Positions 17,726 to 33,776 are shown, numbered from the stretch's first letter. The stretch: 64,000 nucleotides of DNA from an uncultured Nitrospirales bacterium (GCA_964472655.1 CAYYLQ010000004.1:1912-65911); one strand, 5' to 3'. A program made the numbers and translations. Notes: generated from the sequence alone by a model not told the origin.

Positions 17726-17727
17726 TC

Positions 17728-20592: not shown

Positions 20593-20593
20593 T

Positions 20594-20732: not shown

Positions 20733-20761
20733 CCTATCTCGGCCCGCAGGACTCATGGTCT

Positions 20762-22048
20762 ATGGACACGAAGCGCCACATAGCGGTCGTGGGTCTCGGC
20801 TACGTGGGCCTGCCGGTCGCGGCGGCCTTCGGCAAGCTCGGGCCGGTCATCGGCTTTGACGTCAACAAGGCCAAGATCGAGGACCTGCGCCGCGGAGAAG
20901 ACCGGACCGGCGAGGTCTCGAAGGAAGACCTCCGGAACGCACAGATCACCTTCACCGACGATCCCTCGTCGCTCAAAACCGCCGACTTCATCATCGTGGC
21001 GGTCCCGACTCCGATCGATGCCGCCCTGCAGCCGGACCTGACCGCGCTGATGCGCGCGTCCGAGCTCGTCGGCACCCACCTGAAGGTCGGGACGATCGTC
21101 GTCTATGAATCGACGGTCTATCCGGGCGCGACCGAAGAGGTCTGCGGGCCCATCCTGGAGCGCTGTTCCGGCCTGCGCTGCGGGAAGGATTTCAAGCTGG
21201 GCTATTCCCCCGAGCGGATCAACCCCGGCGACAAGGAACATAACTTGGAGAAGATCGTGAAGGTCGTCGCGGGGATGGATGCGGACACGCTCGAGGCGGT
21301 GGCGCAGACCTATGCCCAGGTCGTGAAGGCCGGCGTGCATCGGGCCCCCAGCATCAAGGTGGCCGAGGCGGCCAAGGTGATCGAGAACACGCAACGGGAC
21401 TTGAACGTCGCCCTGATGAACGAGCTGGCCATCATCTTCCATCGGCTGGGCATCAACACCAATGCCGTGCTGGAGGCCGCCGGGACCAAGTGGAACTTTC
21501 TGCGCTTCACGCCGGGGCTGGTCGGCGGCCATTGCATCGGCGTGGACCCCTATTACCTGACCACGAAGGCCGAATCGGTGGGGTATCACCCGCAGGTCAT
21601 CCTGGCGGGGCGGCGGATCAATAACGGCATGGGCGTCTATGTGGCGGAGCAGACCGTCAAGTCCCTGAGCCGGACCGGCAAGTCCGCCGCCGGCGCACGG
21701 GTCGCCGTCCTAGGCCTGACCTTCAAGGAAGACGTGCCGGACGCGCGGAACAGCCGGGTGCCCGACATCGTCACGGAGTTGCGGCAGTACGGCGTGGAGG
21801 TGGTCGTCCACGATCCGCTGGTGCAATCCGCCGAGGCCGAACATGAGTACGGGATCAGCCTGGCCGCCTGGGACTCCCTGAAGGATTTCGACGGGATCGT
21901 GCTCGCCGTCCCGCATCGCGCCTACCGGGAGATGGGGCAGGCCGCCCTGCTGCGCCTCCTGAAGGGCGGCGGCGGCGTCGTGATGGATGTGAAGGGCCTG
22001 CTCGATCCCCGGTCGTTGCCGCCGGCCGTCTCATACTGGCGCCTCTGA
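20762..22048 (+). CDS. nucleotide-sugar dehydrogenase (UDP-glucose/GDP-mannose dehydrogenase family, TviB/WbpO-like)
   Basis: VVGLGYVGLPVA Rossmann motif, catalytic GGHCIGVDP. 428 aa from the internal ATG. Confidence 0.9.
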   Translation: MDTKRHIAVVGLGYVGLPVAAAFGKLGPVIGFDVNKAKIEDLRRGEDRTGEVSKEDLRNAQITFTDDPSSLKTADFIIVAVPTPIDAALQPDLTALMRASELVGTHLKVGTIVVYESTVYPGATEEVCGPILERCSGLRCGKDFKLGYSPERINPGDKEHNLEKIVKVVAGMDADTLEAVAQTYAQVVKAGVHRAPSIKVAEAAKVIENTQRDLNVALMNELAIIFHRLGINTNAVLEAAGTKWNFLRFTPGLVGGHCIGVDPYYLTTKAESVGYHPQVILAGRRINNGMGVYVAEQTVKSLSRTGKSAAGARVAVLGLTFKEDVPDARNSRVPDIVTELRQYGVEVVVHDPLVQSAEAEHEYGISLAAWDSLKDFDGIVLAVPHRAYREMGQAALLRLLKGGGGVVMDVKGLLDPRSLPPAVSYWRL

Positions 22049-22093
22049 GCGCCGGTCGTTCCTTTCCACGATCTTTCACCAATTGAGGACTGC

Positions 22094-23776
22094 ATGAGCG
22101 TCAACGACAAGCAGGTCATCTTCTCGCTGATCGGGGTGGGGCGGGTCCATCCGCCCAAGAAGCAGGTGCTGAAGGACATCTATCTCTCGTTCTACTACGG
22201 GGCCAAGATCGGCGTCCTCGGCCTGAACGGATCGGGCAAGAGCACGCTGCTGCGCATCATCGGCGGCGTGGACAAGGACTATCTCGGCGAGATCACGATG
22301 TCGAAGGGCTACTCGGTCGGGCTCTTGGAGCAGGAGCCGCAGCTCGACAAGAAGAAGACGGTCCGGGAGATCGTTGAAGAGGGACGGAAGGACGTCGTCG
22401 CCGTCCTGAAGGAGTACGAGACCGTCAGCGCCAGGCTGGGCGAGAATCTCGCGTCGGACGAGATGGAGAAGCTGATCGACAAGCAGGCGCAGCTGCAGGA
22501 GAAGATCGAGGCGGTCAACGGCTGGGAGCTCGAGAACCAGCTCGACGTGGCGATGGACGCCCTGCGGTGCCCGCCGCCGGACGCGAAGATCGAGGTGCTC
22601 TCGGGCGGCGAGAAGCGGCGCGTGGCCCTGTGCCGGCTGCTGATCCAGGAGCCCGACATCCTCCTGCTGGACGAGCCGACCAACCATCTGGACGCGGAAT
22701 CGGTCCAGTGGCTGGAGCAGCATCTCCAGCAGTATAAGGGCACGGTCATCGCCGTGACCCACGACCGCTACTTCCTCGACAACGTGGCGCGCTGGATCCT
22801 GGAACTGGACCGGGGGCAGGGCATCCCGTTCGAGGGCAACTATACCTCGTGGCTGGAACAGAAGCAGGCACGCCTGGCCAAGGAGGAGAAGTCCGAATCC
22901 CAGCGCCGGAAGACGCTGGAGCGCGAGCTGGAATGGATCCGCATGTCGCCCAAGGGCCGGCACGCCAAGGGCCGGGCCCGCATCGCACGCTATGAAGACC
23001 TGCTCGGCGACGAGCAGGAGAAACGCGCAGAGGATTTGGAAATCTACATCCCGCCGGGGCCGCGGCTAGGCGACATCGTCGTGGACGCCAAGGACCTCGT
23101 CAAGGCATATGGCGACAAGGTGCTCTTCGAGGGTCTCGGCTTCAGCCTGCCGCGCGGCGGCATCGTCGGGGTGATCGGGCCCAACGGCGCGGGGAAGACG
23201 ACGCTGTTCCGGATGATCATCGGGAAAGAGAAGCCGGACAAGGGGTCCATCAAGGTGGGCGAAACGGTCACGATCGGCTACGTCGACCAAGACCGCACGC
23301 TCGACGACAAGAAGACGGTCTGGGAGGTCCTCTCGGACGGGCAGGACAAGATCAAGTTGGGGAAGATCGAGGTCAACTCGCGGGCCTATTGCGGGCGGTT
23401 CAACTTCGGCGGCACGGAGCAGCAGAAGAAGGTCAAGGACCTCTCGGGCGGGGAACGCAACAGGCTGCATCTCGCGCGCATGCTCCGGGAGGGGGCGAAC
23501 CTTGTCCTGCTGGACGAGCCGACCAACGATCTCGACGTGAACACGCTGCGGGCGCTGGAGGAGGGGCTTGAACGGTTCGGCGGCTGCTGCATGGTGAGCA
23601 GCCACGACCGGTGGTTCCTCGACCGGATCGCGACGCACATCCTGGCGTTCGAAGGGGACAGCCAGGTGGTCTGGTTCGAGGGGAACTACAGCGAGTACGA
23701 GGCGGACCGGAAGAAACGGTTAGGGAAAGAGGCGGAGCGTCCGCACCGCATCCGCTACAAGAAGCTCACGCGGTAG
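22094..23776 (+). CDS. ettA: energy-dependent translational throttle protein EttA (ABC-F)
   Basis: 560 aa. N-terminus ...[47 protein letters not shown] and a second cassette GPNGAGKTT. EttA-like length and arm. Confidence 0.9.
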
Positions 23777-23901
23777 TTGCTACGGCAAGGGCCAGGGGAA
23801 CCTCCTGCTCCGCGTTCCCGCGCCTCGGAAGTCGCTCGAACCAGCGGCGCATTTGAGGCTCACCCCGGCCCTTGCCCTTTCAGACGCGCTCCATCATCAT
23901 C

Positions 23902-23930
23902 TGGCTTTCGAGGTGATGCTTCGCTAGACT
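23902..23930 (+). promoter_or_regulatory. candidate promoter of tRNA-Leu
   Basis: TGGCTT-N17-TAGACT. The -10 ends 12 nt before the tRNA 5' end. Confidence 0.3.
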
Positions 23931-23942
23931 GGGGGCGTTTGG

Positions 23943-24031
23943 GCCGGGGTGGCGGAATTGGCAGACGCCCGGGACTTAAAATCCCGTGGCCCGAAAGGGC
24001 CGTGCGGGTTCGATCCCCGCCCCCGGTACCA
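23943..24031 (+). tRNA. tRNA-Leu (anticodon UAA)
   Basis: GCCGGGGTGGCGGAATTGGCAGAC..., anticodon loop CTTAAAA, long variable arm, GGGTTCGATCCCCGC T-arm, CCA encoded. 89 nt. Confidence 0.9.
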
Positions 24032-24051
24032 AAGGAAAGCGAGAGCCGGCG

Positions 24052-24432
24052 ATGTCGTCAGCAGGCAGGCATGTCGGGCCGTTAGGCAAAGAACGACGGG
24101 TGTTGCCCCGCTACCAGCTCATGCCGCAGGTGGACGTCATCGCGGAAGACGGGCACGAAACCTATTGGGGCGTGCTCAAGGATCTCAGCCGGACCGGGGT
24201 TGCGATCAGCCTCCAGCAGGCGCTGCACTCGAACCAGAAAGTCACCGTGCGGTTTCGCCTGCAAAGCGACGACGGCAGAGCCGTCCTTGAGGAACTGGAT
24301 ACCACGGTGGCCTGGAAGAGCGGACACAACGCGGGTCTGGAATTCATCAAGCCGCTGATCCCGGGCTCGTCTTTTCTCAAAAAGGCGCCTCTCTTGGCCG
24401 CGCACCTCGAAAAGATAAAATCCGGGCGGTAG
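24052..24432 (+). CDS. PilZ domain protein (putative c-di-GMP receptor)
   Basis: RRVLPRY and DLSRTGVAI motifs (RxxxR / DxSxxG). I chose the ATG at 24052 because the longer ORF overlaps tRNA-Leu. Confidence 0.7.
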   Translation: MSSAGRHVGPLGKERRVLPRYQLMPQVDVIAEDGHETYWGVLKDLSRTGVAISLQQALHSNQKVTVRFRLQSDDGRAVLEELDTTVAWKSGHNAGLEFIKPLIPGSSFLKKAPLLAAHLEKIKSGR

Positions 24433-24441
24433 CGGCCGAGG

Positions 24442-24522
24442 TCAGCGTTTCGAGAGGATCAGGCCCACTTGAATCGCCAGCGCGAGCCGTTCGAGGTCGA
24501 ACGGCTTGGGCATGAGCTCCAC
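24442..24522 (-). pseudogene. orphan C-terminal fragment of a receiver domain
   Basis: Minus strand reads (TAA) VELMPKPFDLERLALAIQVGLILSKR*. This looks like the KPF/alpha-5 end of a response regulator with no upstream body. Confidence 0.3.
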
Positions 24523-24685
24523 TTATCCCGCAGAAACCGAGCGAGGCGTCCCTGCATGGCTGCCATGGACTCATGGAATATCCATGCCAGATTAGGAGAT
24601 GGCGATACGGCGGGAGTGCAGTATAGACGAATGTGTCCTCGATACTATCAGTATCAGGACTACGTGAAAGCTTGTACGCGTGTAG

Positions 24686-25870
24686 TTATTTCACAGAGGG
24701 CCGGGTCATCCGCTGTGGGATCAGCAGGCAGCCCAACCCTTTTAACCCTTCCCACAGCACTGAACCGACTCGGCGGACATAGGAAAAGGGCAGCTGCCGC
24801 CGTGCGGTCAGCCCGTAGCGGAGGCGCATGAATTCGGACGAAGGAACGAGCAACGCAGAAAGATAACGCAATTTCGAACGCATCCCCTTGAGCGCGAAGA
24901 ACAGGGCCAATTCCTCACGTGCGGTTGCGCTCGATGCCCTCGCAAGCGACCGAATGATCCGTGCCGACAGTGAACCGGAGGTCGGCCGGACACGGAGTTG
25001 TACAAACACCTGCGCAGGGATCGGGGAACCGAAGAAGCGCCGCAGCCTCTCCAAAACTTCAATCAACGACGATTCCTGTTCCGCCTGCAGGGCGACCGTC
25101 ACGATCCAAGACCAGTCGAGCCGTGTTTCGTCGCGCCGGATCAGGCGGTCGAGCTCGTAGAACCAGAGGAGCGGCGCTTGCTCACCATGATGGAGCGCAT
25201 GGAAGCAGAGGTGCAGGAGCAGGTCTTCTCGGCCCAGAGACCATGTCTCGATGCCGAGGAACCGCCTCTTGACGCACCGGCTCCAGACGGCGTCCATATC
25301 CACGCTGTCTGCAAAGGGGGGATAGGTAATCGTCCAATGGGGTTCCACGACGATCCAGCCATGCCGGTTTTTGAGGAATCCGAGGGTGTACGAATAGACC
25401 TGGGCAAATCCGGGGCGGTGGTTCAGTTCCCGAAATCCTAACTCGCCCAGCGTGTCCGCGACCCTCGGCAGGTCCTTCTTACGCACCAGAAGATCGATGT
25501 CGCCGGTTGGACGGGCCGTGATGTCGCCGTAGAGCAGCTCCGCGAGGGCCAACCCTCGGATGGGGGCGCAGGCAATCCCGGCGCTCTCGAACGCCCGCAG
25601 CACGGAAGCAAGTTCTTCCGCCAGCAGGAGATTATGCGCTGACGTGCGCACGGTGCTCGCTTTCAGCTGTTCCAGCAGGGCTGTGGAAGGGCGATGGTTT
25701 GGATGGGACTCATTGAACCACCGATAGAGAAGGTGAGTCAGTCCTTGTTGGTCCGCCTCCCTGATGATCTGTTCCCATGCCCGGTCATCTTGGGATTGGG
25801 GAGCGCAGCCTTCGACACCTGTGCTCAGAAGGATGGACATGAGAAAGGGATGTACAGGGGGCGAGGTCAT
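24686..25870 (-). CDS. nucleotidyltransferase family protein (NTP_transf_5-like), lasso-cluster associated
   Basis: 394 aa. GDIDLLV nucleotidyltransferase motif. Its ATG overlaps the kinase stop (ATGA). Confidence 0.7.
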   Translation of the reverse strand: MTSPPVHPFLMSILLSTGVEGCAPQSQDDRAWEQIIREADQQGLTHLLYRWFNESHPNHRPSTALLEQLKASTVRTSAHNLLLAEELASVLRAFESAGIACAPIRGLALAELLYGDITARPTGDIDLLVRKKDLPRVADTLGELGFRELNHRPGFAQVYSYTLGFLKNRHGWIVVEPHWTITYPPFADSVDMDAVWSRCVKRRFLGIETWSLGREDLLLHLCFHALHHGEQAPLLWFYELDRLIRRDETRLDWSWIVTVALQAEQESSLIEVLERLRRFFGSPIPAQVFVQLRVRPTSGSLSARIIRSLARASSATAREELALFFALKGMRSKLRYLSALLVPSSEFMRLRYGLTARRQLPFSYVRRVGSVLWEGLKGLGCLLIPQRMTRPSVK

Positions 25871-26844
25871 AGGTTCGAGTCGGACTTGATTGCCGTAACG
25901 ACTTCCGGAAGGAACGCAAGATCATGCGGATACGACAAGGACTTGACGGGGATGTTCGCAGTCAGCCGGGAGGTCCACTTGAATTGACGCGCGAGCCGGG
26001 CCCTTTCCACGATCACGGGGTTGAACGTATTGGCGATCAGCGCGAGACATGCCCGGCGGTGAGGCAAGGTTCTGATCGTCACGCGTTGTGCGCGGGTTCG
26101 GCTGCGCGGCGGTCTCAGCACGTAGATGGCTCGTAACGGCGCTTCCGCGCGTGAGGAAAGAGGATGGGGCAGGGGAATCACCAGCTTGGGGGTTTCGGGA
26201 TTCATGGGGGTCCCGGCAGCCAGGTGCCCAAGGAGCGCATTTGCGATCTCTGGAAACAGCTTGATGCGGGGAGGGCCAGGTTGGGCGGCGAAAAGACCGC
26301 CGTCCTCTTTGACCACCAGCAAGTCGTCGGTCAAAAGGGAGTGCCCTGCTTGGAGAAAAGCGGCGCCCAGGCTCGATTTGCCGTAGCCGCAGTCCCCCAG
26401 GAACGCCGCCGCTTGTCCGTTCACCTCGACGACCGTCGCATGCAGGGGTTCGATCCCTTGCTTGACCAGAGCAAAGGAGAGGACCTGGCCCAGGAGATAG
26501 GTTTGAAAAGTCTCTTGCGAGGCTCCGTTGAGGGCGCGGCAGGCAATCTGTCGGCCTTCGGCGGAGACCAGGAACTCGAAGAGCCCGGTCCAGCGAAGAT
26601 AGTCCGATCCGTCCGCAAGCCGATCATAGTGGAACCAGGTTGCCGCATCCGGTCCGCTCCCGGCTTTCTTGGAAGCGTCGGAAAAAAGCGAAGGGGGGCC
26701 CTCGAAGCATTCAACGTCGGTCGGGCCGGATTCCTCGAGGTCTTGGCAGGGAAACGGCCAATGGCTCCTGAAACGGAAGCCGTAAAGCCGGTAGGTGCGG
26801 AGAGATCGCCGCCCGCCCGCTGGAATAGCGACTGTCTCAATCAT
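25867..26844 (-). CDS. HPr kinase/phosphorylase-like kinase (lasso-peptide kinase candidate)
   Basis: 325 aa. P-loop GDCGYGKSSLG followed by LLTDDLLVV. Its ATG overlaps the precursor stop (TAATG). Confidence 0.75.
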   Translation of the reverse strand: MIETVAIPAGGRRSLRTYRLYGFRFRSHWPFPCQDLEESGPTDVECFEGPPSLFSDASKKAGSGPDAATWFHYDRLADGSDYLRWTGLFEFLVSAEGRQIACRALNGASQETFQTYLLGQVLSFALVKQGIEPLHATVVEVNGQAAAFLGDCGYGKSSLGAAFLQAGHSLLTDDLLVVKEDGGLFAAQPGPPRIKLFPEIANALLGHLAAGTPMNPETPKLVIPLPHPLSSRAEAPLRAIYVLRPPRSRTRAQRVTIRTLPHRRACLALIANTFNPVIVERARLARQFKWTSRLTANIPVKSLSYPHDLAFLPEVVTAIKSDSNL

Positions 26845-27008
26845 TAGCCGGGTGGGTTCTTGGTATGGGGGTGTCCGCCCCCATCCGAATTGGTTCCTTG
26901 CTTTGCTTTCGTCAGGCGGCGGAGGTCTCCGTAAACTACCAAGCGAGGAGCACGATACAGTTTTTTGCTGTGACCTGCCGTGTTGGGTTTCGCCTTGTTC
27001 GATTTCAT
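26844..27008 (-). CDS. lasso-peptide precursor (A) candidate, 54 aa, not in the ORF track
   Basis: My hand translation: MKSNKAKPNTAGHSKKLYRAPRLVVYGDLRRLTKAKQGTNSDGGGHPHTKNPPG. AGGAGG lies 6 nt upstream of the ATG. The leader fits YxxPxLxxxGxxxxxT with Thr at position -2. The predicted core is AKQGTNSD... with Asp8. Confidence 0.7.
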   Translation of the reverse strand: MKSNKAKPNTAGHSKKLYRAPRLVVYGDLRRLTKAKQGTNSDGGGHPHTKNPPG

Positions 27009-27009
27009 G

Positions 27010-28977
27010 CTATGCCTCCTGATGCGCCATCATTGCCGATTCTGCATGACCGCGTTTCGTGGCCGTTCCGCGGTGGTTGTTCTCTCCAAAGAAAACTTGC
27101 AGCCAGAGTTCTAACGCAAGGAGATCGCCGAGATCCCAGGCAAGTTCGCACCCGGGCCCTCGGATCCGGTCTTTTAATCGTGCGAATTCTTTCCGCATCA
27201 CCTCTGCCTTCAGATATCCCAACCGGACCGCTGCCCCCTCCGACTCAAGATGGTGAACCAGTTGCGGATAGTCCTGCTCCAGTCCTTCATTCACCAGATC
27301 GGTGAAATCGGCCTTCCAAGTACGACGAACGATGGCGTCCGGGAGCACTCCGCGCATGGCTTCGCGCAACAGCGCCTTGGGCACGCCCTTCCAGGTCTGT
27401 ATCTCTCCCGGGATTCCCATCAGAAAGGTGAGGAGGTCACGATCCAGGAAGGGAAACGCCTTCTCCAGCCCGTGCATGGACGCCACCTTGTTGTTCCATT
27501 CCATACACATGACATGATAGCCCGACCGGGCTTCTTCATAGAGGGAGCGGGCATGAACCGTGGGGAAAGCCTTCCTCATGGCGTGTTGTAGTGAGAGGCC
27601 CAGCCGTGTTCGCTGCCGCAGCTTTTCCCCGTACCAGGGACGATCTCGGTGATTGGGTCGAAGCCGGCGAAGGTAGGGAAGGAGTGCGGGAGGAACATGG
27701 TATTTGACGAGTTCCAGGAAGAAGCGTCGGTAGAAACAGCGCGGGTCCGCGTCGGTCAACCAACGGCCGAATTCCTTCAAATGCGAACGGACTTGGCCCC
27801 ATGCCAACCGTCGAAAGAGGTCAACCAGATAGGCCTGGGGGAAGATCACTTGATCGGCCCAGTGGCCCGTCAGAAGCACCCGGGCCCCGCGCTGGCGGGT
27901 GGTCTGTAAAAAGGCGTGGGTCGTGTTCCATTGTTCGTCCAGGAAGGGGACCTCGACGTGCCACATCTCTTCGTGAGATGCCGTCATGAGCCCCAACTTT
28001 CCCCTGGGAACGCGTTCGATCGCGATTCCGTAATCGCGTTCGATTTCCAGGAGAAACGCTTTTTCATCGGATGCCGATCCCTCGGGAGAAATATAGGAGA
28101 GGCCAAGAATGGGCGGGTACCGACCTGGACTGTGCCGTCCCAGGGTTTCTGCCTGGCATAAAATGGAGGAAGAGTCCAGGCCTCCGCTCACGGAGACCGC
28201 AACTGGATGCGCGCTCCGAAGACGGCGTCGAACCGCCTGCTCAAAGTAATGTCGGAACGCTTCAGCGTACTCCTGAAAGGATTGGAGGCGCGTCTCCCTG
28301 GAGGGTTCAAAGTCCCAGTATTGCCGTGTCTGGAATCCCTGAACTGCAAGGATCGCCAGGTGGGCGGGGAGCAGGCTGAATATCCCTGCAAAGCAGGTCA
28401 GGCCCCGACTATCCGGAGCGCCCGACAGCAAACACTCGCCGAGTATCTCGTCGTTGGGTTTGGTGGAGACATGGGGATGGGCCAGGATCGCCTTGATCTC
28501 AGATGCAAAGAGAAAGAGATTCTGGCTCCTGTAATAGTAAAGAGGCCTGATCCCTATTGCATCACGGGCTAACAGAAGTCGCTGCCGCTTGGGGTCGAAG
28601 AGTCCCAGAGCGAAGTCTCCATTTAAACGTTCGGGGAACCGGTCCCCGAAAACTTCGTATGCGGCCATGACGAGAGCGGAGTCGGGAGACGCAGCGGAAA
28701 GCCCCGGGGACGCCTTGAGGCTCGCGAGGAGGTCGTCGCGGTTGTCGAGACGGCCGTCAAAGACGAGCACGGTTCCTGCTGGATGTAGGAGCGGCTGGGT
28801 CTCGGTGGACGATTCAGGGGTAACCCGTAGGAGCTGGCAGACCAGTCCGACTGGCCCCTGGAGACGCAGCCCTTCGCCGTCCGGCCCTCGGTGAGCCAGC
28901 GTTGCGCTAAGACGCGCGAGGACGGCGCGCTCGACCGGCTGCCCATCGAGGTTCCAGATGCCGAGGATTCCGCTCAA
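27010..28977 (-). CDS. lasso-peptide cyclase (C), asparagine-synthetase-B homologue
   Basis: A TTG start at 28977 gives MSGILGIW... (Ntn position, Ser instead of Cys) and overlaps the B2 stop (TTGA). PP-loop SVSGGLDSS. 655 aa. The upstream 68 codons of the ORF track are rejected. Confidence 0.85.
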   Translation of the reverse strand: MSGILGIWNLDGQPVERAVLARLSATLAHRGPDGEGLRLQGPVGLVCQLLRVTPESSTETQPLLHPAGTVLVFDGRLDNRDDLLASLKASPGLSAASPDSALVMAAYEVFGDRFPERLNGDFALGLFDPKRQRLLLARDAIGIRPLYYYRSQNLFLFASEIKAILAHPHVSTKPNDEILGECLLSGAPDSRGLTCFAGIFSLLPAHLAILAVQGFQTRQYWDFEPSRETRLQSFQEYAEAFRHYFEQAVRRRLRSAHPVAVSVSGGLDSSSILCQAETLGRHSPGRYPPILGLSYISPEGSASDEKAFLLEIERDYGIAIERVPRGKLGLMTASHEEMWHVEVPFLDEQWNTTHAFLQTTRQRGARVLLTGHWADQVIFPQAYLVDLFRRLAWGQVRSHLKEFGRWLTDADPRCFYRRFFLELVKYHVPPALLPYLRRLRPNHRDRPWYGEKLRQRTRLGLSLQHAMRKAFPTVHARSLYEEARSGYHVMCMEWNNKVASMHGLEKAFPFLDRDLLTFLMGIPGEIQTWKGVPKALLREAMRGVLPDAIVRRTWKADFTDLVNEGLEQDYPQLVHHLESEGAAVRLGYLKAEVMRKEFARLKDRIRGPGCELAWDLGDLLALELWLQVFFGENNHRGTATKRGHAESAMMAHQEA

Positions 28978-29423
28978 GGGGCGACCTGCCTGATCATCGG
29001 CGCAGACACGAGTGTTGTGAAGCCGTCCTGTTCCGGTTGTCCGAAGATCACGTGGCCGTTGTTTTCGAGCCACGCGTGGGCGGCGAGGGTCTCTGCGTTG
29101 CGTGCGACTCCGATGTGAAGCGTGACTGCGAGTCCACGCCGTCCGAGGAGCCAGGAAAGGACGAGAGCCTGTTTGAGGCATGTGGCTGCGACAGGGTTGT
29201 AACGGCCGGCGACCTCCACGAGCCAGGCCAGGCGCGGAACGGAAGAAACTGTCTCAGGGTGGGGTTCTCGCTCCTTCCGGTCAACATGGGCGAAGAGTGT
29301 GAGGACGCGTGGAAACGGCAGGAGTTGCATGGCCAGTTCCACGAGGAGAAACAGCGTCCAGGCTTGAACGAGGACGAGACGTTCACTTGGCGGGAGTTGG
29401 AAAAATTTATGAAGCCGTCCCAT
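28974..29423 (-). CDS. lasso-peptide leader protease (B2), transglutaminase-like Cys protease
   Basis: Catalytic-type motifs ATCLKQALV (Cys) and AHAWLE (His). Start is either ATG 29423 (MGRLHKFFQLPPSERL) or 29465. Confidence 0.8.
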   Translation of the reverse strand: MGRLHKFFQLPPSERLVLVQAWTLFLLVELAMQLLPFPRVLTLFAHVDRKEREPHPETVSSVPRLAWLVEVAGRYNPVAATCLKQALVLSWLLGRRGLAVTLHIGVARNAETLAAHAWLENNGHVIFGQPEQDGFTTLVSAPMIRQVAP

Positions 29424-29706
29424 TGTAAACTTCGACCAATCCTTTCTCCTGCATTTGGACCACAAGGCTGAAAAGATCTTTTGCGCACTGGGTTTTGGTC
29501 ACCGCATAATCTTCCAGCAATGCATCGAGAATCTTCTCGAGAGACTGCTGTTCTTGGAGCAGATGCCAGATCCTCGTCCCTACCTGGTCGAGGCCGAAAT
29601 AGACGCCGGTATTGAGGTTCAGGATGACCGCTTCTCCCCGAAGATTGTGGGAGAGGACGCCTTCTGGGACTCGCAGACGTGATGCCAGAGAAAGGCCGCG
29701 CTCCAT
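29407..29706 (-). CDS. PqqD-family RiPP recognition element (B1)
   Basis: 99 aa from ATG 29706. ...LRGEAVILNLNTGVYFGLDQVGTRIWHLL... is PqqD-like. The GTG at 29769 lies upstream of the predicted -10 and is rejected. Confidence 0.8.
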   Translation of the reverse strand: MERGLSLASRLRVPEGVLSHNLRGEAVILNLNTGVYFGLDQVGTRIWHLLQEQQSLEKILDALLEDYAVTKTQCAKDLFSLVVQMQEKGLVEVYNGTAS

Positions 29707-29754
29707 GAGCGAGAGTCCTCTAGGTTTAGAGGGCGTCGAGGTCTTGAAGCTAAG

Positions 29755-29783
29755 AAGGTATCCTCTCACTCAACCCATGTCAA
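29755..29783 (-). promoter_or_regulatory. candidate promoter of the lasso operon
   Basis: Minus strand reads TTGACA-N17-TACCTT, about 45 nt upstream of the B1 ATG. Confidence 0.3.
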
Positions 29784-29875
29784 GACTGCGTGGCCCAGAC
29801 ACCGGCCGGAGTAGGACACCGCGGGACAGTTACTCCCGCCTCGCGCGCTTTGTTGTCGTCTCCGCCTGTGTTACT

Positions 29876-31009
29876 ATGGCGCTCATGAGTTTCTGGAATG
29901 ACATTGCGCAGCCGATCATCGGCCTCTCGCCCATGGACGGGGTGACCGACCCGGCGTTCCGGTTCATCGTGGCCAAGTACGGCAAGCCGGATGTCCAGGT
30001 CACCGAGTTCATCAACGTGGACGAAGTCTGTCACGGCGGCGACGCGGCCTGGGGTCAGCTGCACTATGCCGAGATCGAGCGGCCGGTCGTCGCCCAGATC
30101 TACGGCGCCGATCCCGCCAAGTTCTACCGGGTGGCGCAGGTGGTCTGCGAGCTGGGCTTCGACGGCGTGGACATCAACATGGGCTGTCCTTCGAAGAACG
30201 TCTCCGCGCGCGGCTGCGGGGCGGCGCTGATCAAGAACCCGCCGCTGGCGCGGGAGATCATCCGCGCGGTCCAGGCCGGCGTGAGTGATTGGGCGTCGGG
30301 GCACCGTCTTGACGCCCTCGGCCTGCGCCCTCGAGTGGTGGAACGGGTGAACGCGCTCGTGTCTGGACGAACGGGCGCTGGCATGAAGTCCCGCAGGCTC
30401 ATCCCGGTTTCCGTCAAGACGCGTCTCGGCTACGATTCGGTGGTCATCGAGGATTGGGTGTCGATCCTTCTGGAGGAACGGCCTGCAGCGATCTCCATCC
30501 ACGGCCGGACGCTGGCCCAGATGTACCGGGGGCAGGCCGATTGGGGGGCGATCGCCCGTGCGGCCAAGCTCGTCCGCGAGACTCCAACCCTGGTGCTCGG
30601 GAACGGGGATGTGGAGTCGATGGCGGATCTGGTCAGCAAGGTGAGAGACGCCCACGTTCACGGCGTGCTCATCGGGCGAAGCGCGCTCGGCAATCCCTGG
30701 ATCTTTCTCGCCAAGGCCTGGGCCAAGGCACAGGTGAATGACGCGAGGATCGCCGAACCCTTGTCCGACGTTCCTTTGCAGGAGCGGTTCCGGGTCGCGC
30801 TCGAGCACGCCCGCTATTTTGAAGCCCTCGGCGGGGCCTCGCGGTTTGCGGCCATGCGCAAGCACCTGGGCTGGTACTGCACCGGCTTCTTCAAAGCGGC
30901 TGAGGTCCGCGCGCGGATGTTCCGCGCCACCAGCTCGCACGATGTGGAGCAGATCCTCGCCGGGATCGTTACAGACGTTTCCGAGCCCGTCGGCGGTCTT
31001 CCAGCTTGA
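29876..31009 (+). CDS. tRNA-dihydrouridine synthase
   Basis: LSPMDGVTDPAFR, DINMGCP and HGRT motifs of the Dus TIM-barrel flavoenzyme family. I chose the internal ATG. Confidence 0.85.
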   Translation: MALMSFWNDIAQPIIGLSPMDGVTDPAFRFIVAKYGKPDVQVTEFINVDEVCHGGDAAWGQLHYAEIERPVVAQIYGADPAKFYRVAQVVCELGFDGVDINMGCPSKNVSARGCGAALIKNPPLAREIIRAVQAGVSDWASGHRLDALGLRPRVVERVNALVSGRTGAGMKSRRLIPVSVKTRLGYDSVVIEDWVSILLEERPAAISIHGRTLAQMYRGQADWGAIARAAKLVRETPTLVLGNGDVESMADLVSKVRDAHVHGVLIGRSALGNPWIFLAKAWAKAQVNDARIAEPLSDVPLQERFRVALEHARYFEALGGASRFAAMRKHLGWYCTGFFKAAEVRARMFRATSSHDVEQILAGIVTDVSEPVGGLPA

Positions 31010-31629
31010 CCATCGTTCTGGCTTCGACTTCCCCCCGGCGCTATCAGATCCTGTCGCTGCTCAACCTGCCCTTTCTGATGGTGCCCCCTGACGGCGCCGA
31101 AGTCGTGACCGCCGGACATTCACCGGCCGAAGAAACGCTCTTTCAGGCCCGGCGCAAGGCCGCCTCGCTGGCCGTCCGATTCCCGGAGGCGATGCTCATC
31201 GGCAGCGATACCCTCATCAGCTTCGAAGGGGCCAAGATCGGCAAGCCGCGGGATTCCGCTGACGCGCGGGCCATCCTCCGGCGCTTGCGGGGCAGGACAC
31301 ATGAAGTGGTGACCGCCGTGGCGATGATGAAGGGCACGCGCGCGATCGAGGCCGTCGAGACGGCGCAGGTCTTCATGCGGGAGTTCAGCGACGAGGAGCT
31401 GGAGACTTACCTGGCGACCGGCGATTCTCTCGACAAGGCCGGCGCATACTCGGTACAGGGGCTGGGACGGAACCTGATCGCCGGGGTGGACGGCGACTAT
31501 CTTGCGGTGGTGGGGCTGCCGCTGCGAGCCGTCGCTGCAGGCCTGCAGAGCATGGGCTGCGCTGTGCCGGCGGATCTCGACCGGCTCTACCGCGAGCGCG
31601 CGGTCCTCAACTGGCGGACGTGTCCCTGA
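31006..31629 (+). CDS. maf: Maf-like nucleoside-triphosphate pyrophosphatase
   Basis: TTG start overlaps the dus stop. IVLASTSPRR and GAYSVQG motifs. Confidence 0.85.
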   Translation: MTIVLASTSPRRYQILSLLNLPFLMVPPDGAEVVTAGHSPAEETLFQARRKAASLAVRFPEAMLIGSDTLISFEGAKIGKPRDSADARAILRRLRGRTHEVVTAVAMMKGTRAIEAVETAQVFMREFSDEELETYLATGDSLDKAGAYSVQGLGRNLIAGVDGDYLAVVGLPLRAVAAGLQSMGCAVPADLDRLYRERAVLNWRTCP

Positions 31630-32224
31630 CCGTCCCGCCGGGGAGAGCGGCCGGCCGCGGGATATACAGGCCGGCGGAGAATTCCATCTTCATCGCGTCA
31701 TGGAATCCCATCGTCAGCGGGATCAATTCGTGGTTGAGCACGAGGGCCAGATATCCCGTAAAGGGGTGGGGCGCGGTGGGGACGAAGATCAGGCTCAGCC
31801 GGCCTTGAGGCGCGAGCTGGAGCGCGGCAGGGGCTTCGCCCATGAGGAGGCCGATGGCGTAAAGACCCTGCCGCGGGAACGGCAGGAGGACGATCCGGTT
31901 TTCCCGCTGGCGATCCATGAAGGCGAAAATGTCGGTCACGGACTTGAAGGTCGTGTAGATGCTCCGGACCAGCGGAACGCGCAGGAGCGCCTTCTCGGAC
32001 GATTTCAGGAGACGCTCGCCCAGCAGGTTGGACGCGAGGGCCCCGGTGATCAGAATCACCAGGAGGAGCGCGAGCACTCCCAGCCCCGGGATCGAGGAAC
32101 TGACGCCCGGCCCGAACAGATCGCCGAGCGCGCCGTCCAGGGTCGTAAACAGCGTCTTGAGAACGAAGAGCGTGCCCCAGATGGGCACGATGACGACGAG
32201 GCCCGTCAGAAAGTGGCGTCGCAA
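31607..32224 (-). CDS. DUF502 family membrane protein
   Basis: N-terminus MRRHFLTGLVVIVPIWGTLFVL... and overall pattern are typical of DUF502. TTG start. Confidence 0.7.
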   Translation of the reverse strand: MRRHFLTGLVVIVPIWGTLFVLKTLFTTLDGALGDLFGPGVSSSIPGLGVLALLLVILITGALASNLLGERLLKSSEKALLRVPLVRSIYTTFKSVTDIFAFMDRQRENRIVLLPFPRQGLYAIGLLMGEAPAALQLAPQGRLSLIFVPTAPHPFTGYLALVLNHELIPLTMGFHDAMKMEFSAGLYIPRPAALPGGTVRDTSAS

Positions 32225-32232
32225 CGGAGCCG

Positions 32233-32928
32233 TTATTCCAGGATGACGGCGGTGCCGATCAGGGTGACGATCGCGAGGGGACCTTGCGCCGGCAGCACTT
32301 CAAGGCGTGCGCCGACGACGCCATTGCCGCCCCGTTCGAGGGCCTCGGTTTTCAAGTCGGCGATGGCCAGATCAATGGCCTTGCGCAGCCGGAGCCCGAC
32401 CACCCCCCCGCTCAGACGCTGGATGTGCTGCCCTTCCGGCAACAGTTCTTTCGACTCACCGACACGAACGATGACGGTGGCGGCCACAAGCCCGGCGTAA
32501 CCTGCGATACGCTGGCCTTCAAACACGAACTGAGTCGTTACCGGGATGGATGCCTGCTGCAGGGTGACCGGCGGAGGCGCGGAGGCAGAAGGCGCGGCTG
32601 GCGGAGGTGCGGCCGGCTGAGCCGCGCGCGCCATGACAGGCGCCGATTCCAATTTATTGATCCGTTCCAGAAAATCGTCCGTGTCCGGAGAAGTCGCACG
32701 GGGTGCCTGCGCCGCGGCCTTCTCCTTCTGCTTGCCTTTGCCTTTTTTCTCAACGGACGGGAGCATCTCCCTGATGGAGGCAAGCGGGTCAGATTTCTCT
32801 TCGTATGGGGGAGGTTCCGGTATCGCCGGTTTGGAGGCCGGAAGCACGCCGGGCTTGCTGGGGTCGTAGCCGCAATTGATGCAGATTTTTCCGGGCAAGA
32901 GACCGATCCCGCAGAGTGGACACGTCAT
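32233..32928 (-). CDS. zinc-ribbon protein with Pro/Ala-rich linker and YbjQ-like C-terminal domain
   Basis: N-terminal CPLC...CINC, low-complexity linker, C-terminal ~100 aa resembling UPF0145/YbjQ. GGAGG RBS. Confidence 0.5.
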   Translation of the reverse strand: MTCPLCGIGLLPGKICINCGYDPSKPGVLPASKPAIPEPPPYEEKSDPLASIREMLPSVEKKGKGKQKEKAAAQAPRATSPDTDDFLERINKLESAPVMARAAQPAAPPPAAPSASAPPPVTLQQASIPVTTQFVFEGQRIAGYAGLVAATVIVRVGESKELLPEGQHIQRLSGGVVGLRLRKAIDLAIADLKTEALERGGNGVVGARLEVLPAQGPLAIVTLIGTAVILE

Positions 32929-32943
32929 CGCTCGCCTCCGTTC

Positions 32944-33774
32944 TTACCTGACACGTTGAGAGTCGGGCAGCGGCCGGACACCGAGGTGATCGGCCAGGAT
33001 GTATTTGTCCAGAAAGGTCAGGGTCCGGGCCCAGGCTTCCGCCGCCGCCGCGGCATTATAGACCTCCGGCCTCGTGTCGTTGAAGAAGGCATGCGAAGTG
33101 CCGGGGTAGGTGTGGATTTCGCAGACTACCTTTCTCGCGGCCAAGGTGCGGGCCAGATACTCCACTTCGTCCCGGGTGATCCAGTCGTCGTGTTCCGCTT
33201 GGTGATAGAGCACGGGACATTGCAGGGTCGCCAGCGATTCCCGGGGCACTTTCCCGTAAAACGCCACCACCGCCCGCAGTTGACGCCTCGCGCAGGCGTA
33301 GCCGAGAGCGTTGGAGCCTCCCATGCAGAAACCGAGGACCGCGAGCCGGTTCTTTTTCACGTACTCCTGGAAGTTCAAGTATTCGCAGGCGGCGCCCAAG
33401 TCCTGCGTCAGTTCGGAGATCTTCACCTTGCCCATGAGCTGAGCGGCGGCCGCGGCATCGCTCGTGACCGCCCCCCCGATCCGGCTGTATTGATCCACCA
33501 CCAGCGCCACGTAGCCGTGCTGGGCCAGCCGGAAGGCGAGATCCTGAAAGTGGGCGTTCATGCCCCACCACTCGTGGAGGAGGATTACGGCGGGAAACGG
33601 CCCGCCTTTCTGCGGCCAGGCCTGGAATCCCCGGATGAACACCTGCTTGGCGGTCTTGGTGGGCGCGTAGGGATCGATGGCCACGTCCAGGATGTCGGGC
33701 ATGCCGGCCGCGGGGATGCGGACGGCGGAGGAACCGATATCCTTGCGGTCATGCTTGGGGGGCGAAACGGGCAT
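32944..33774 (-). CDS. dienelactone hydrolase family protein
   Basis: VILLHEWWGMN and the nucleophile elbow GFCMGG. I chose ATG 33774, directly after the upstream gene's stop. Confidence 0.8.
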   Translation of the reverse strand: MPVSPPKHDRKDIGSSAVRIPAAGMPDILDVAIDPYAPTKTAKQVFIRGFQAWPQKGGPFPAVILLHEWWGMNAHFQDLAFRLAQHGYVALVVDQYSRIGGAVTSDAAAAAQLMGKVKISELTQDLGAACEYLNFQEYVKKNRLAVLGFCMGGSNALGYACARRQLRAVVAFYGKVPRESLATLQCPVLYHQAEHDDWITRDEVEYLARTLAARKVVCEIHTYPGTSHAFFNDTRPEVYNAAAAAEAWARTLTFLDKYILADHLGVRPLPDSQRVR

Positions 33775-33776
33775 TG

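What the first reader, a model, noticed from the sequence alone, without database searches (positions are those of the whole stretch)
24686..29783. Six-gene lasso-peptide (RiPP) operon with kinase and nucleotidyltransferase genes, downstream of tRNA-Leu
**What is there.** All six genes lie on the minus strand with almost no intergenic space.
- PqqD-like RRE (B1)
- transglutaminase-like Cys protease (B2, motifs ATCLKQ...AHAWLE)
- Asn-synthetase-like cyclase (C, MSGILGIW N-terminus and SGGLDSS PP-loop)
- a 54-codon precursor-like ORF
- an HPr-kinase-like P-loop protein (GDCGYGKSS)
- a GDIDLLV nucleotidyltransferase

**Why it matters.** B1, B2, C and A together form the minimal lasso machinery. 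The two extra genes imply post-translational tailoring. By eye the segment is less G+C-rich than the flanking dus and ettA genes, and it sits about 0.65 kb from tRNA-Leu, so horizontal acquisition is plausible. I cannot tell whether an identical cluster has already been described.
Basis: partly seen in the sequence, partly recalled or inferred. Interest (0 to 1): 0.8.

Follow-up and report, generated by a model that had tools for sequence, protein, structure and literature searches.

The report
Lasso-peptide operon with kinase and nucleotidyltransferase
This is a real, intact six-gene operon for a knotted "lasso" peptide that is probably phosphorylated and then sugar-decorated; the gene set is a known kind, but the peptide lacks both known phosphorylation sites and instead keeps one conserved threonine in its tail.

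Summary
Six translationally coupled minus-strand genes (24686-29706) encode B1 (PqqD RRE), B2 (Cys protease), C (Asn-synthetase-like cyclase), a 54-aa precursor, an HprK-like kinase (K) and an NTP_transf_5 nucleotidyltransferase (N). The precursor matches the lasso leader motif YxxPxLxxxGxxxxxTx exactly. That predicts the core AKQGTNSDGGGHPHTKNPPG with an Ala1-Asp8 ring.

Lasso clusters with K and N are already known (paeninodin, pseudomycoidin, Bsf). This core has neither the C-terminal Ser nor the Ser3 that those kinases phosphorylate. Across 41 genome loci and 116 database precursors, the only conserved hydroxyl residue is a tail Thr followed by Lys/Arg, here Thr15-Lys16. I infer that Thr15 is the acceptor. 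This is untested.

The clade is large and sits in uncultured Nitrospirota, Methylomirabilota, Acidobacteriota and other phyla. No member appeared in the literature I could search.

The operon and a PilZ gene form a 5.8-kb indel that starts at the 3' end of tRNA-Leu. One related contig has the empty site. Another carries a different lasso cluster there. No integrase or att repeat was found.

Verdict: new variant of a known kind, moderate interest.

The parts
29407..29706 (-). B1: PqqD-like RiPP recognition element, 99 aa, ATG at 29706
   Evidence: Pfam PqqD 1.4e-16. NCBIfam lasso_PqqD_Bac 7.8e-18, below that model's cut-off. 28% identical to BsfB1, E 8e-11. Start read from the sequence.
28974..29423 (-). 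B2: transglutaminase-like leader peptidase, 149 aa; overlaps B1 by 17 nt
   Evidence: NCBIfam lasso_biosyn_B2 92 bits against a cut-off of 33; Pfam Transglut_core3 6.5e-24. Cys82 is invariant in 60/60 and His116 in 61/61 aligned homologues.
27010..28977 (-). C: Asn-synthetase-like macrolactam cyclase, 655 aa, TTG start inside the B2 stop (TTGA)
   Evidence: Asn_synthase 1.8e-40 and GATase_7 4.3e-26. lass_lactam_cya 3.6e-116, 389 bits, below the 525 cut-off. PP-loop SGGxDS is invariant in 71-72 of 72 homologues. Residue 2 is Ser, not the glutaminase Cys, in 65/70.
26844..27008 (-). A: 54-aa precursor. Leader = residues 1-34 (27008-26907). Core = AKQGTNSDGGGHPHTKNPPG (26906-26847).
   Evidence: NCBIfam lasso_leader_L3 22.2 bits against a cut-off of 19. 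Exact match to YxxPxLxxxGxxxxxTx, and the only such ORF in 20000-34000. 433 database homologues; several are named 'lasso RiPP family leader peptide-containing protein' by NCBI.
26859..26864 (-). Codons for core Thr15-Lys16 (ACC AAG): the conserved tail [ST][KR] dipeptide and predicted phospho-acceptor
   Evidence: [ST][KR] occurs in 40/41 genome-locus tails, and in 32 of them at tail position 6 or 7. Shuffled tails give a mean of 3.3 and a maximum of 11; 0 of 2000 shuffles reach the observed count. It occurs in 115/116 unique database cores. The two closest precursors lose ring Thr5 and Ser7 but keep Thr15. The acceptor role is inferred, not shown.
25867..26844 (-). K: HprK/PEPCK-fold peptide kinase, 325 aa; ATG overlaps the stop of A (TAATG)
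   Evidence: Hpr_kinase_C 2.3e-5, HprK_rel_A 2e-9, ScmC 5e-4. Profile against PDB hits HPr(Ser) kinases at 1.6e-5. AF2 pLDDT 88.6, and Foldseek matches HprK/P and PEPCK. H135, G155, K156, S157, D173 and D174 are invariant in 80/80; G150 and G153 are Gly in 76 and 77 of 80. The spacing of this motif is identical to the mutationally validated BsfK motif (PMC10368454). 28% identical to BsfK, E 4e-12.
24686..25870 (-). N: NTP_transf_5 nucleotidyltransferase-fold protein, 394 aa; ATG overlaps the stop of K (ATGA)
   Evidence: Pfam PF14907 7e-50 against a cut-off of 31. D124 and D126 of GDIDLLV are invariant in 63/63 homologues. In the same family, PsmN is inactivated by a D134A/D136A double mutation (PMC6993621).
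29707..29876 (.). 170-nt divergent intergenic region between B1 (ATG 29706) and dus (ATG 29877); presumed operon promoter region
   Evidence: Read from the sequence. The consensus promoter scan found nothing convincing here.
24032..29865 (.). 5.8-kb variable segment (PilZ gene plus lasso operon) between the tRNA-Leu 3' end and dus
   Evidence: L083 aligns to the window up to 24031 and again from 29866, with only 126 nt between those points in L083. L086-L089 all resume homology at 29862-29886.
23943..24031 (+). tRNA-Leu(taa), left boundary of the variable segment
   Evidence: ARAGORN and Rfam tRNA at 53 bits. 97% identical to the L083 copy.
24052..24432 (+). PilZ-domain gene (126 aa) inside the variable segment, convergent with N
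   Evidence: Pfam PilZ 3.5e-10. Called as a 126-aa gene on identical Logan contigs. Absent from L006, which has a 2OG-Fe(II) oxygenase and a Sel1-repeat gene there instead.

Best explanation
**What it is.** The six genes form one operon that makes a class-II-type lasso peptide from the 54-aa precursor.

**Proposed pathway, by analogy with characterised systems.**
1. B1 binds the leader (Tyr-17, Pro-14, Leu-12, Thr-2).
2. K, an HprK-fold kinase, phosphorylates the still-linear precursor, probably helped by B1.
3. B2 cuts after Lys34.
4. C adenylates Asp8 and closes an Ala1-Asp8 macrolactam around the tail.
5. N, a PsmN-type NTP_transf_5 protein, adds a further group to the phosphate, most likely hexose.

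**The specific prediction.** The acceptor is Thr15 in the tail motif H-P-H-T-K. It is not the C-terminal Ser of the paeninodin and pseudomycoidin type, and not Ser3 of the Bsf type. Thr15 is the only hydroxyl residue conserved across the clade. These cores are almost free of aromatic residues. The bulky modified Thr and the adjacent Lys/Arg may therefore act as the steric lock at the ring.

**Predicted monoisotopic masses.** Lasso 1937.909; with phosphate 2017.876; with phosphate and hexose 2179.928.

**Genomic setting.** The operon lies in a 5.8-kb variable segment at the 3' end of tRNA-Leu. In related Nitrospirales-like genomes that site is empty, holds the same cluster, or holds a different lasso cluster.

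**Shown versus inferred.**
- Shown: gene families, catalytic residues, leader motif, conservation of the Thr-[KR] dipeptide, synteny breakpoints.
- Inferred: every chemical step, the acceptor site and the lock role.
For: **Operon and families.**
- Tight coupling of the six genes.
- Family assignments.
- Kinase fold.
- Catalytic residues: H135/G155/K156/S157/D173/D174 in K 80/80 (G150 76/80, G153 77/80); D124/D126 in N 63/63; Cys82 in B2 60/60; PP-loop in C 71-72/72; His116 in B2 61/61.
- The same B1-B2-C-A-K-N order recurs in many of the 80 genome loci from several phyla.

**Precursor.**
- Exact leader motif and Asp at core position 8.
- In the precursor alignment the invariant columns are Y18, P21, L23, G27 and T33, and T49 (= core Thr15) is conserved at 90% or more.

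**Acceptor argument.**
- [ST][KR] occurs in 40/41 loci, and in 32 at tail position 6 or 7. Zero of 2000 shuffles reach this.
- It occurs in 115/116 unique database cores. 100 of them read P-x-[ST]-[KR]. Only 3 end in Ser. 39 rings have no Ser or Thr at all. Only 3 cores contain an aromatic residue.
- Ring position 3 is Ser/Thr in only 6% of cores.
- The nearest precursors, AKQGGNADGAGHPRTKNPPG and AKAGAAADGAGKPKTKTPPA, keep only Thr15.
- Four of four contexts found through the precursor alone have a kinase-like gene next to A. Three hit Hpr_kinase_C. In L165 it is an unannotated 312-aa gene in the K position.

**Literature.**
- Kinases act on linear precursors, and PsmN is needed for hexose on the phosphate (PMC6993621).
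- BsfK phosphorylates an internal Ser, accepts Thr at that position, and is stimulated by B1 (PMC10368454).

**Locus.**
Against: - There is no experimental datum for this clade. The Thr15 assignment rests only on conservation. A conserved P-x-T-[KR] could instead be a target-binding or threading motif.
- The core also has Thr5 and Ser7 in the ring.
- K is only 28% identical to the one characterised kinase I could compare it with (BsfK). It scores below the curated cut-offs of all kinase models.
- The chemistry of N is unresolved even for PsmN, and LppN was inactive in a heterologous host (PMC13381572).
- No exporter or immunity gene is adjacent, whereas some related loci have an ABC exporter.
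- No promoter or terminator was identified.
- For the island reading: no integrase, no att repeat, and only moderately atypical composition.
Confidence: 0.6

Rival explanations
1. Ring phosphorylation, as in the Bsf system. K phosphorylates a hydroxyl inside the macrolactam ring (Thr5 or Ser7 here). The conserved tail Thr-[KR] is only a plug or target-contact motif.
For: BsfK phosphorylates Ser3 inside the ring-forming segment and is the closest characterised kinase available (28% identity, E 4e-12; PMC10368454). Thr is the commonest residue at ring position 5 in the clade (39% Ser/Thr).
Against: No ring position is conserved as Ser/Thr; the highest is 39%. 39 of 116 rings have no Ser or Thr at all. 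The two nearest precursors have Gly5/Ala7 and Ala5/Ala7, yet appear to sit beside intact kinases 88% and 77% identical to K.
Confidence: 0.12
2. Phosphorylation is a transient activation step. Phospho-Thr15 is eliminated to dehydrobutyrine, or N nucleotidylates (AMP/UMP) rather than glycosylates. The final product would then not be a phospho-hexosyl peptide.
For: N belongs to a nucleotidyltransferase-fold family whose chemistry is unproven. The PsmN authors could not decide whether it is itself a glycosyltransferase or makes a substrate for a host enzyme (PMC6993621). A dehydroalanine-containing lasso peptide is listed in the 2026 review's reference list (PMC13352647).
Against: No lyase-like gene is in the operon or the adjacent flanks. 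In the only tested homologue, the observed products were +162 Da hexose adducts on the phosphate (PMC6993621).
Confidence: 0.1
3. K and N do not modify the lasso peptide in this lineage. Either they are inactive, or they serve another substrate such as immunity or regulation. The product would be a plain Ala1-Asp8 lasso.
For: Unphosphorylated products co-occur with phosphorylated ones in heterologous hosts (PMC9266682). LppN had no detectable activity in a heterologous host (PMC13381572).
Against: K and N are translationally coupled to A. All catalytic residues are invariant. A kinase-like gene follows A in 4 of 4 contexts found independently through the precursor.
Confidence: 0.08
4. The cluster is ancestral at this site and was simply deleted in the L083 lineage. 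There was no horizontal acquisition, and the lower GC3 reflects weak expression.
For: L006, with EttA 97% identical, has the same K-N genes next to the same tRNA-Leu. L087 has B1 and B2 of the same type next to dus. There is no integrase or att repeat. Other window genes also have GC3 of 0.68-0.74.
Against: The breakpoint falls exactly at the tRNA 3' end. L086 carries a different lasso cluster at the same site (kinase 33% identical, unrelated core). The cargo between N and the tRNA differs between the window and L006. The kinase clade is spread over many phyla at 45-63% identity.
Confidence: 0.35

Closest known systems
Pseudomycoidin (psm) cluster, Bacillus pseudomycoides DSM 12442 (PMC6993621)
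   Same: Split B1/B2, a C cyclase, an HprK-like kinase and an NTP_transf_5-type 'N' gene with an essential DxD pair. The kinase acts on the precursor. N is required to add hexose(s) to the phosphate. The authors proposed that the bulky modification locks the lasso.
   Different: The psm gene order is C-A-K-B1-B2-N-D, with an ABC exporter. The acceptor is the C-terminal Ser and the ring is Ala1-Glu9. Here the order is B1-B2-C-A-K-N, there is no exporter, the core ends in Gly, and the conserved hydroxyl is Thr15. I could not obtain the PsmK or PsmN sequences for direct comparison.
Paeninodin (pade) cluster and the ThcoK/SyanK kinases (review PMC9266682)
   Same: [quoted passage not shown]
   Different: There the C-terminal Ser is described as 'extremely conserved' and is the acceptor. 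The pade cluster has no N gene. In this clade only 3 of 116 cores end in Ser.
Bsf cluster, Bradymonas sediminis FA350 (PMC10368454)
   Same: The kinase motif H-x14-G-xx-G-x-G-K-S...D-D has identical spacing. The kinases are 28% identical. The acceptor is internal, not C-terminal. The cluster includes an N gene. The core has a similar outline (BsfA GTSGNEVD GSTPADRGNNPGD; BsfA against A gives E 0.002). B1 stimulates the kinase.
   Different: The Bsf acceptor is Ser3 and the leader has Ile(-2). Here position 3 is Gln (Gly in most relatives) and the leader has the canonical Thr(-2).
Linear polyphosphorylated peptides (LPP), Bacillota (PMC13381572)
   Same: An RRE, an HprK-like kinase and an NTP-transferase act on a leader-bearing precursor.
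   Different: LPP clusters have no macrolactam cyclase or B2. The leader is removed by a signal-peptidase-like enzyme, and the acceptor is Ser3.

Membership tests
Lasso peptide biosynthetic gene cluster | Precursor with the leader motif YxxPxL...T(-2), and a core whose residue 7-9 is Asp or Glu | tested here: met
   Exact YRAPRLVVYGDLRRLTK match; core A1...D8. NCBIfam lasso_leader_L3 22.2 bits against a cut-off of 19.
Lasso peptide biosynthetic gene cluster | B1 RRE (PqqD-like) and B2 transglutaminase-like Cys protease with catalytic Cys and His | tested here: met
   PqqD 61 bits against a cut-off of 23.4. lasso_biosyn_B2 92 bits against a cut-off of 33. Cys82 and His116 invariant.
Lasso peptide biosynthetic gene cluster | Asn-synthetase-like ATP-dependent macrolactam cyclase with a PP-loop | tested here: met
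   Asn_synthase 140 bits against a cut-off of 21. SGGLDSS at residue 264, invariant in homologues. The dedicated NCBIfam cyclase model scores 389 bits, below its 525 cut-off.
Lasso peptide biosynthetic gene cluster | A threaded macrolactam product | not testable with these tools
   Needs expression, MS/MS and NMR or unthreading assays.
Paeninodin/pseudomycoidin-type phosphorylated lasso peptides | [quoted passage not shown] | tested here: met
   H135, K156, D173 and D174 invariant in 80/80. HprK/P fold.
Paeninodin/pseudomycoidin-type phosphorylated lasso peptides | C-terminal Ser of the precursor as phospho-acceptor | tested here: not met
   The core ends ...NPPG. Only 3 of 41 and 3 of 116 related cores end in Ser.
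Bsf-type phosphorylated lasso peptides | Ser/Thr at core position 3, and Ile/Val at leader position -2 | tested here: not met
   Core position 3 is Gln; Ser/Thr there in 6% of relatives. Leader position -2 is Thr.
PsmN-like tailoring enzyme (Pfam NTP_transf_5) | PF14907 domain with the metal-binding DxD pair | tested here: met
   170 bits against a cut-off of 31. D124 and D126 invariant in 63/63.
PsmN-like tailoring enzyme (Pfam NTP_transf_5) | Adds hexose to the peptide phosphate | not testable with these tools
   Known only from psmN genetics in E. coli (PMC6993621). No PDB relative by sequence. The single-sequence AF2 model was unusable (pLDDT 38.5).
tRNA-associated genomic island | Boundary at the tRNA 3' end, and an empty site in a relative | tested here: met
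   L083 homology stops at 24031 and resumes at 29866. In L083, tRNA-Leu and dus are 126-137 nt apart.
tRNA-associated genomic island | Integrase gene and flanking direct repeat of the tRNA 3' end | tested here: not met
   No such repeat in 23800-30100. The only other gene in the segment is a PilZ gene.

The most novel reading that the evidence does not exclude
This operon represents a third regiochemical class of phosphorylated lasso peptides. It is large, confined so far to uncultured phyla (Nitrospirota, Methylomirabilota, Acidobacteriota, Gemmatimonadota and others), and experimentally untouched. In this class an HprK-fold kinase modifies an internal tail Thr in a P-x-T-[K/R] motif. The resulting phospho(-glycosyl)-Thr, together with the adjacent Lys/Arg, supplies the steric lock that these aromatic-free, Gly/Lys-rich cores otherwise lack. 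The tRNA-Leu/dus site in this Nitrospirales lineage would be a swap site for alternative lasso cassettes.
Probability: 0.35. Interest if true: 0.6.

Novelty: new variant of a known kind. Interest (0 to 1): 0.45.

Why it matters
- Lasso peptides are valued as very stable scaffolds. Only a few tailoring chemistries are known, and phosphorylation has been mapped to just two positions: the C-terminal Ser and Ser3.
- A clade of hundreds of clusters with a strictly conserved internal Thr-[Lys/Arg] would add a third site.
- It would also give a direct test of the idea, raised for pseudomycoidin, that a post-translational group can itself lock the lasso thread.
- The window gives a compact six-gene cassette of 5.0 kb with exact predicted masses, ready for synthesis and expression.
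- Ecologically, the result shows that nitrifier-related and other uncultured soil and groundwater lineages carry this RiPP type at a variable chromosomal site.

Tried and rejected
- **Promoter and terminator scan of 24300-30100.** Counts were no better than shuffles and nothing fell in the B1-dus spacer.
- **Rfam scan of the whole window.** Only the seven tRNAs.
- **Search for att-like direct repeats or inverted repeats around the segment.** Only short chance-level matches.
- **Naming the organism through exact-sequence look-up.** The genome-contig scan did not return the source genome. The best hit was a Nitrospirales MAG with K 69% identical.
- **Zhu et al. 2016 (PMC4919450).** Not held. PadeK, ThcoK, SyanK and PsmK could therefore not be compared directly. 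BsfK was recovered from the methods text of PMC10368454 instead.
- **Structure of N.** The single-sequence AF2 model had pLDDT 38.5 and was discarded. Sequence and profile searches of N against PDB found nothing.
- **Rejected: the kinase targets a C-terminal Ser.** None exists in this core.
- **Rejected: the cluster is a recent insertion.** L006 shares it at the same site at 78% nucleotide identity.
- **Rejected: a second precursor nearby.** The motif scan of 20000-34000 found only one.
- **Adjacent exporter or isopeptidase.** The flanks are UDP-glucose dehydrogenase, EttA, Dus, Maf and DUF502.

Full report
**1. The observation**

Six ORFs lie head-to-tail on the minus strand between 24686 and 29769. 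I read the starts from the sequence.

| Gene | Coordinates | Note |
|---|---|---|
| B1 | 29407-29706 | ATG start, AGAGGA upstream |
| B2 | 28974-29423 | |
| C | 27010-28977 | TTG start embedded in the B2 stop (TTGA); gives MSGILGIW |
| A | 26844-27008 | 54 codons |
| K | 25867-26844 | TAATG overlap with A |
| N | 24686-25870 | ATGA overlap with K |

The junctions are -17, -4, +1, -1 and -4 nt, so this is a translationally coupled operon. Gene calls on identical public contigs (Logan SRR12313480 and SRR12313477) give the same six products of 99, 149, 655, 54, 325 and 394 aa.

tRNA-Leu(taa) is at 23943-24031.

**2. Family assignments**

Results from Pfam and NCBIfam:
- B1: PqqD, 1.4e-16.
- B2: lasso_biosyn_B2, 92 bits against a cut-off of 33.
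- C: Asn_synthase 1.8e-40 and GATase_7 4.3e-26. The lasso cyclase model gives 3.6e-116 but 389 bits is below its strict 525 cut-off.
- A: lasso_leader_L3, 22.2 bits against a cut-off of 19.
- N: NTP_transf_5, 7e-50.
- K: only weak profile hits (Hpr_kinase_C 2.3e-5, HprK_rel_A 2e-9, ScmC 5e-4).

I tested K further:
- A profile of 30 homologues hits HPr(Ser) kinase structures at 1.6e-5.
- An AF2 model with pLDDT 88.6 and pTM 0.89 matches HprK/P C-terminal domains. Over both domains it matches PEP carboxykinases, with Foldseek probability 1.0.

Catalytic residues are intact and conserved in homologues from 80 loci:

| Protein | Residues | Conservation |
|---|---|---|
| K | H135, G155, K156, S157, D173, D174 | 80/80 |
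| K | G150, G153 | 76/80 and 77/80 |
| N | D124, D126 | 63/63 |
| B2 | Cys82 | 60/60 |
| B2 | His116 | 61/61 |
| C | SGGxDS PP-loop | 71-72/72 |

- The K motif has exactly the spacing of the BsfK motif H148-G163-G166-G168-K169-S170-D186-D187, which was validated by mutagenesis (PMC10368454).
- C has Ser rather than the glutaminase Cys at residue 2.

**3. The precursor**

- The 54-aa product reads MKSNKAKPNTAGHSKKL-YRAPRLVVYGDLRRLTK-AKQGTNSDGGGHPHTKNPPG.
- The middle block matches the lasso leader motif YxxPxLxxxGxxxxxTx exactly. It is the only such ORF in 20000-34000.
- Tyr(-17), Pro(-14), Leu(-12) and Thr(-2) are the residues recognised by B1 and B2 in studied systems (PMC10368454).
- This fixes the core as AKQGTNSDGGGHPHTKNPPG: 20 aa with Asp at position 8, hence an Ala1-Asp8 ring and a 12-residue tail.
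- Calculated monoisotopic masses: linear 1955.920; lasso 1937.909; with HPO3 2017.876; with HPO3 and hexose 2179.928.

**4. What is already known**

- HprK-like kinases in lasso clusters were characterised for paeninodin (PadeK), ThcoK and SyanK. They phosphorylate, and polyphosphorylate, the C-terminal Ser of the linear precursor. That Ser is described as extremely conserved in kinase-bearing clusters (review PMC9266682).
- Pseudomycoidin adds PsmN, an uncharacterised NTP transferase required to add one or two hexoses to the phospho-Ser. [quoted passage not shown]
- BsfK from Bradymonas phosphorylates Ser3, accepts Thr at that position, and is stimulated by B1. The Bsf leader has Ile(-2) (PMC10368454).
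- A 2026 paper still recognises only the paeninodin and Bsf subfamilies of phosphate-modified lasso peptides, plus linear LPPs (PMC13381572). A June 2026 review cites only C-terminal Ser phosphorylation (PMC13352647).
- So the gene set here is a known kind.

**5. What differs**

- The core ends in Gly, and position 3 is Gln. Neither known acceptor exists.

I collected relatives in two independent ways.

(a) *Through the kinase.*
- A scan of one genome per species with a kinase alignment gave 80 loci. All are MAGs of Nitrospirota, Methylomirabilota/Rokubacteria, Acidobacteriota, Gemmatimonadota, Desulfobacterota and others.
- Nearly all have lasso genes beside the kinase.
- In 41 loci a precursor sits just upstream of K, as here. 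Of these, 40 carry an [ST][KR] dipeptide in the tail, 32 at tail position 6 or 7.
- Shuffled tails give a mean of 3.3 and a maximum of 11. None of 2000 shuffles reach the observed count. Only 3 of the 41 end in Ser.

(b) *Through the precursor.*
- A profile search with a precursor alignment found 433 database proteins.
- Among the 116 unique cores listed:
  - 115 have [ST][KR], and 106 of these are T[KR].
  - 106 have the motif at tail position 6 or 7.
  - 100 read P-x-[ST]-[KR].
  - 3 end in Ser.
  - 39 rings contain no Ser or Thr at all.
  - Only 3 cores contain any aromatic residue.
- In the alignment, the only core column conserved at 90% or more is this Thr (T49 of the precursor, Thr15 of the core).

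The two closest precursors are AKQGGNADGAGHPRTKNPPG and AKAGAAADGAGKPKTKTPPA. Matching contig lengths (4486 and 2976 nt) indicate they lie beside the kinases that are 88% and 77% identical to K. They have lost ring Thr5 and Ser7 but keep Thr15.

Contexts retrieved through four precursors, not through K, all have a kinase-like gene next to A:
- Three of these genes hit Hpr_kinase_C.
- In L165 the gene in the K position is an unannotated 312-aa product.
- Three of the four contexts also have N.

My inference is that Thr15 (ACC at 26864-26862) is the phospho-acceptor. In short-tailed relatives the Thr lies 2-3 residues from the C-terminus (for example ...KPRTKL). In a second gene-order group (K-B2-B1-C...A, mostly Acidobacteriota) a [KR]-T sits 1-3 residues from the end. 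The clade therefore looks like a near-terminal Thr counterpart of the C-terminal Ser systems.

**6. Size of the clade**

A full HMMER scan of 1.84 billion cluster representatives found 375 representatives at E <= 1e-30, 7,725 at E <= 1e-10 and 16,004 at E <= 1e-3. The word-indexed search found at least 1,766 sequences, the best at 88%, 77% and 68% identity. NCBI already names several of the precursors 'lasso RiPP family leader peptide-containing protein'. I found no paper on lasso peptides from these lineages in the searchable library.

**7. Mechanism proposed**

Each step is inferred by analogy.
1. B1 binds the leader.
2. K, helped by B1, phosphorylates Thr15 on the linear precursor.
3. B2 cleaves after Lys34.
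4. C closes Ala1-Asp8 around the tail.
5. N adds a hexose, or another group, to the phosphate.

The cores are Gly/Ala/Lys/Pro-rich and nearly free of aromatic residues. Thr-[KR] sits a fixed 6-8 residues after the ring acid. The modified Thr and the following Lys/Arg could therefore be the plugs on either side of the ring. This extends the lock hypothesis of PMC6993621 and is speculative.

**8. Genomic setting and the horizontal-transfer question**

*Composition.*
- The flanks are housekeeping genes: UDP-glucose dehydrogenase, EttA and tRNA-Leu on one side; Dus, Maf and DUF502 on the other.
- Cluster G+C is 0.597 against 0.6175 for the window, the 19th percentile.
- Cluster GC3 is 0.58-0.71, against 0.83-0.92 in the flanks and a gene mean of 0.80 with sd 0.08.

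*Comparison with relatives.* The window itself reads EttA, tRNA-Leu, PilZ, then the B1-B2-C-A-K-N operon, then dus.

| Locus | Relatedness | What lies at the tRNA-Leu/dus site |
|---|---|---|
| L006 (Nitrospirales MAG) | EttA 97% aa; ettA-tRNA region 87% nt; K-N 78% nt | Same K-N, tRNA-Leu, ettA order. A 2OG-Fe(II) oxygenase and a Sel1-repeat gene replace PilZ. |
| L083 (metagenome contig) | EttA 91%, Dus 82% | tRNA-Leu directly beside dus. Alignment to the window stops at 24031, the tRNA 3' end, and resumes at 29866, with 126 nt between in L083. |
| L086-L089 | Dus about 78-81% | All resume homology at 29862-29886. |
| L087 | as above | Same-type B1 and B2 (67% and 62%). |
| L086 | as above | A different lasso cluster: kinase 33% identical, core SGNGTGADGGPIAGMRMVCL. 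|

*Reading.*
- Segment 24032-29865 (PilZ plus the operon) is a variable cassette at a tRNA-adjacent site.
- No integrase or att repeat was found.
- The cluster predates the split from L006.
- I cannot decide between ancient gain with later swaps and lineage-specific loss.

**9. Verdict**

- It is not a new kind of system. It is a compact, exporter-less representative of a large uncharacterised clade within the kinase/nucleotidyltransferase lasso clusters.
- The clade is distinguished by a conserved tail Thr-[Lys/Arg] in place of either known acceptor.
- This is a good genome-mining target with a sharp, cheap experimental test. I rate its interest as moderate rather than high.

Noticed in passing
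window 8041-9444 (+): A 467-aa ORF with a Shedu SduA C-terminal (DUF4263) nuclease domain (Pfam 1.6e-16; PADLOC SduA 2.6e-14). It lies in the lowest-G+C stretch of the window (about 0.54), 220 nt downstream of tRNA-Lys (7746-7821). This is probably a small anti-phage defence islet at another tRNA.
   Followed up: partly
L086 1-4800 (metagenome contig Ga0184623_10001094): At the same position upstream of dus, a related genome carries a different lasso cluster. It has B1, B2, C, the precursor core SGNGTGADGGPIAGMRMVCL, an extra 379-aa ORF, and a kinase only 33% identical. This suggests cassette replacement at the site.
   Followed up: partly
L010, L014, L015, L016, L028, L031, L055 (upstream of K): These relatives have two tandem Asn-synthetase-like C genes. 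Their cores start with Gly and use Glu8 (for example GGTKKKDE...GPKTR...). The role of the second cyclase-like enzyme is unknown.
   Followed up: no
L003 7667-10405; L009 3048-3875; L042 3491-4699; L079 3107-4066: Some clusters of the clade add an ABC exporter (ABC_membrane plus ABC_tran), an ABC-2 permease, or a SAM-dependent methyltransferase. The window cluster has none of these.
   Followed up: partly
window 24052-24432 (+); L006 2633-3930: The cargo between N and tRNA-Leu differs between close relatives. The window has a PilZ-domain gene. L006 has a 2OG-Fe(II) oxygenase and a Sel1-repeat protein. The oxygenase could be an extra tailoring enzyme in that genome.
   Followed up: partly
window 17324-20592 (-): A 954-aa hybrid histidine kinase (three PAS domains, HisKA, HATPase_c and a receiver domain) followed by a stand-alone response regulator, next to tRNA-Glu (17231-17308). 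Their GC3 (0.68-0.73) is as low as that of the lasso genes.
   Followed up: no
L164 6168-7130: The precomputed Pfam family PF27840, seen on many kinase homologues, is 'ScmC' (the SynChlorMet cassette protein). It is absent from the local Pfam copy. It links these lasso kinases to the ScmC/HprK-related family found in other RiPP-like cassettes.
   Followed up: no
L083 6125-8635: In the relative with the empty site, two extra genes lie between ettA and tRNA-Leu: a 472-aa product that looks porin-like by eye (not checked against any profile) and a 281-aa product. The window lacks both. Both sides of this tRNA are therefore variable.
   Followed up: no
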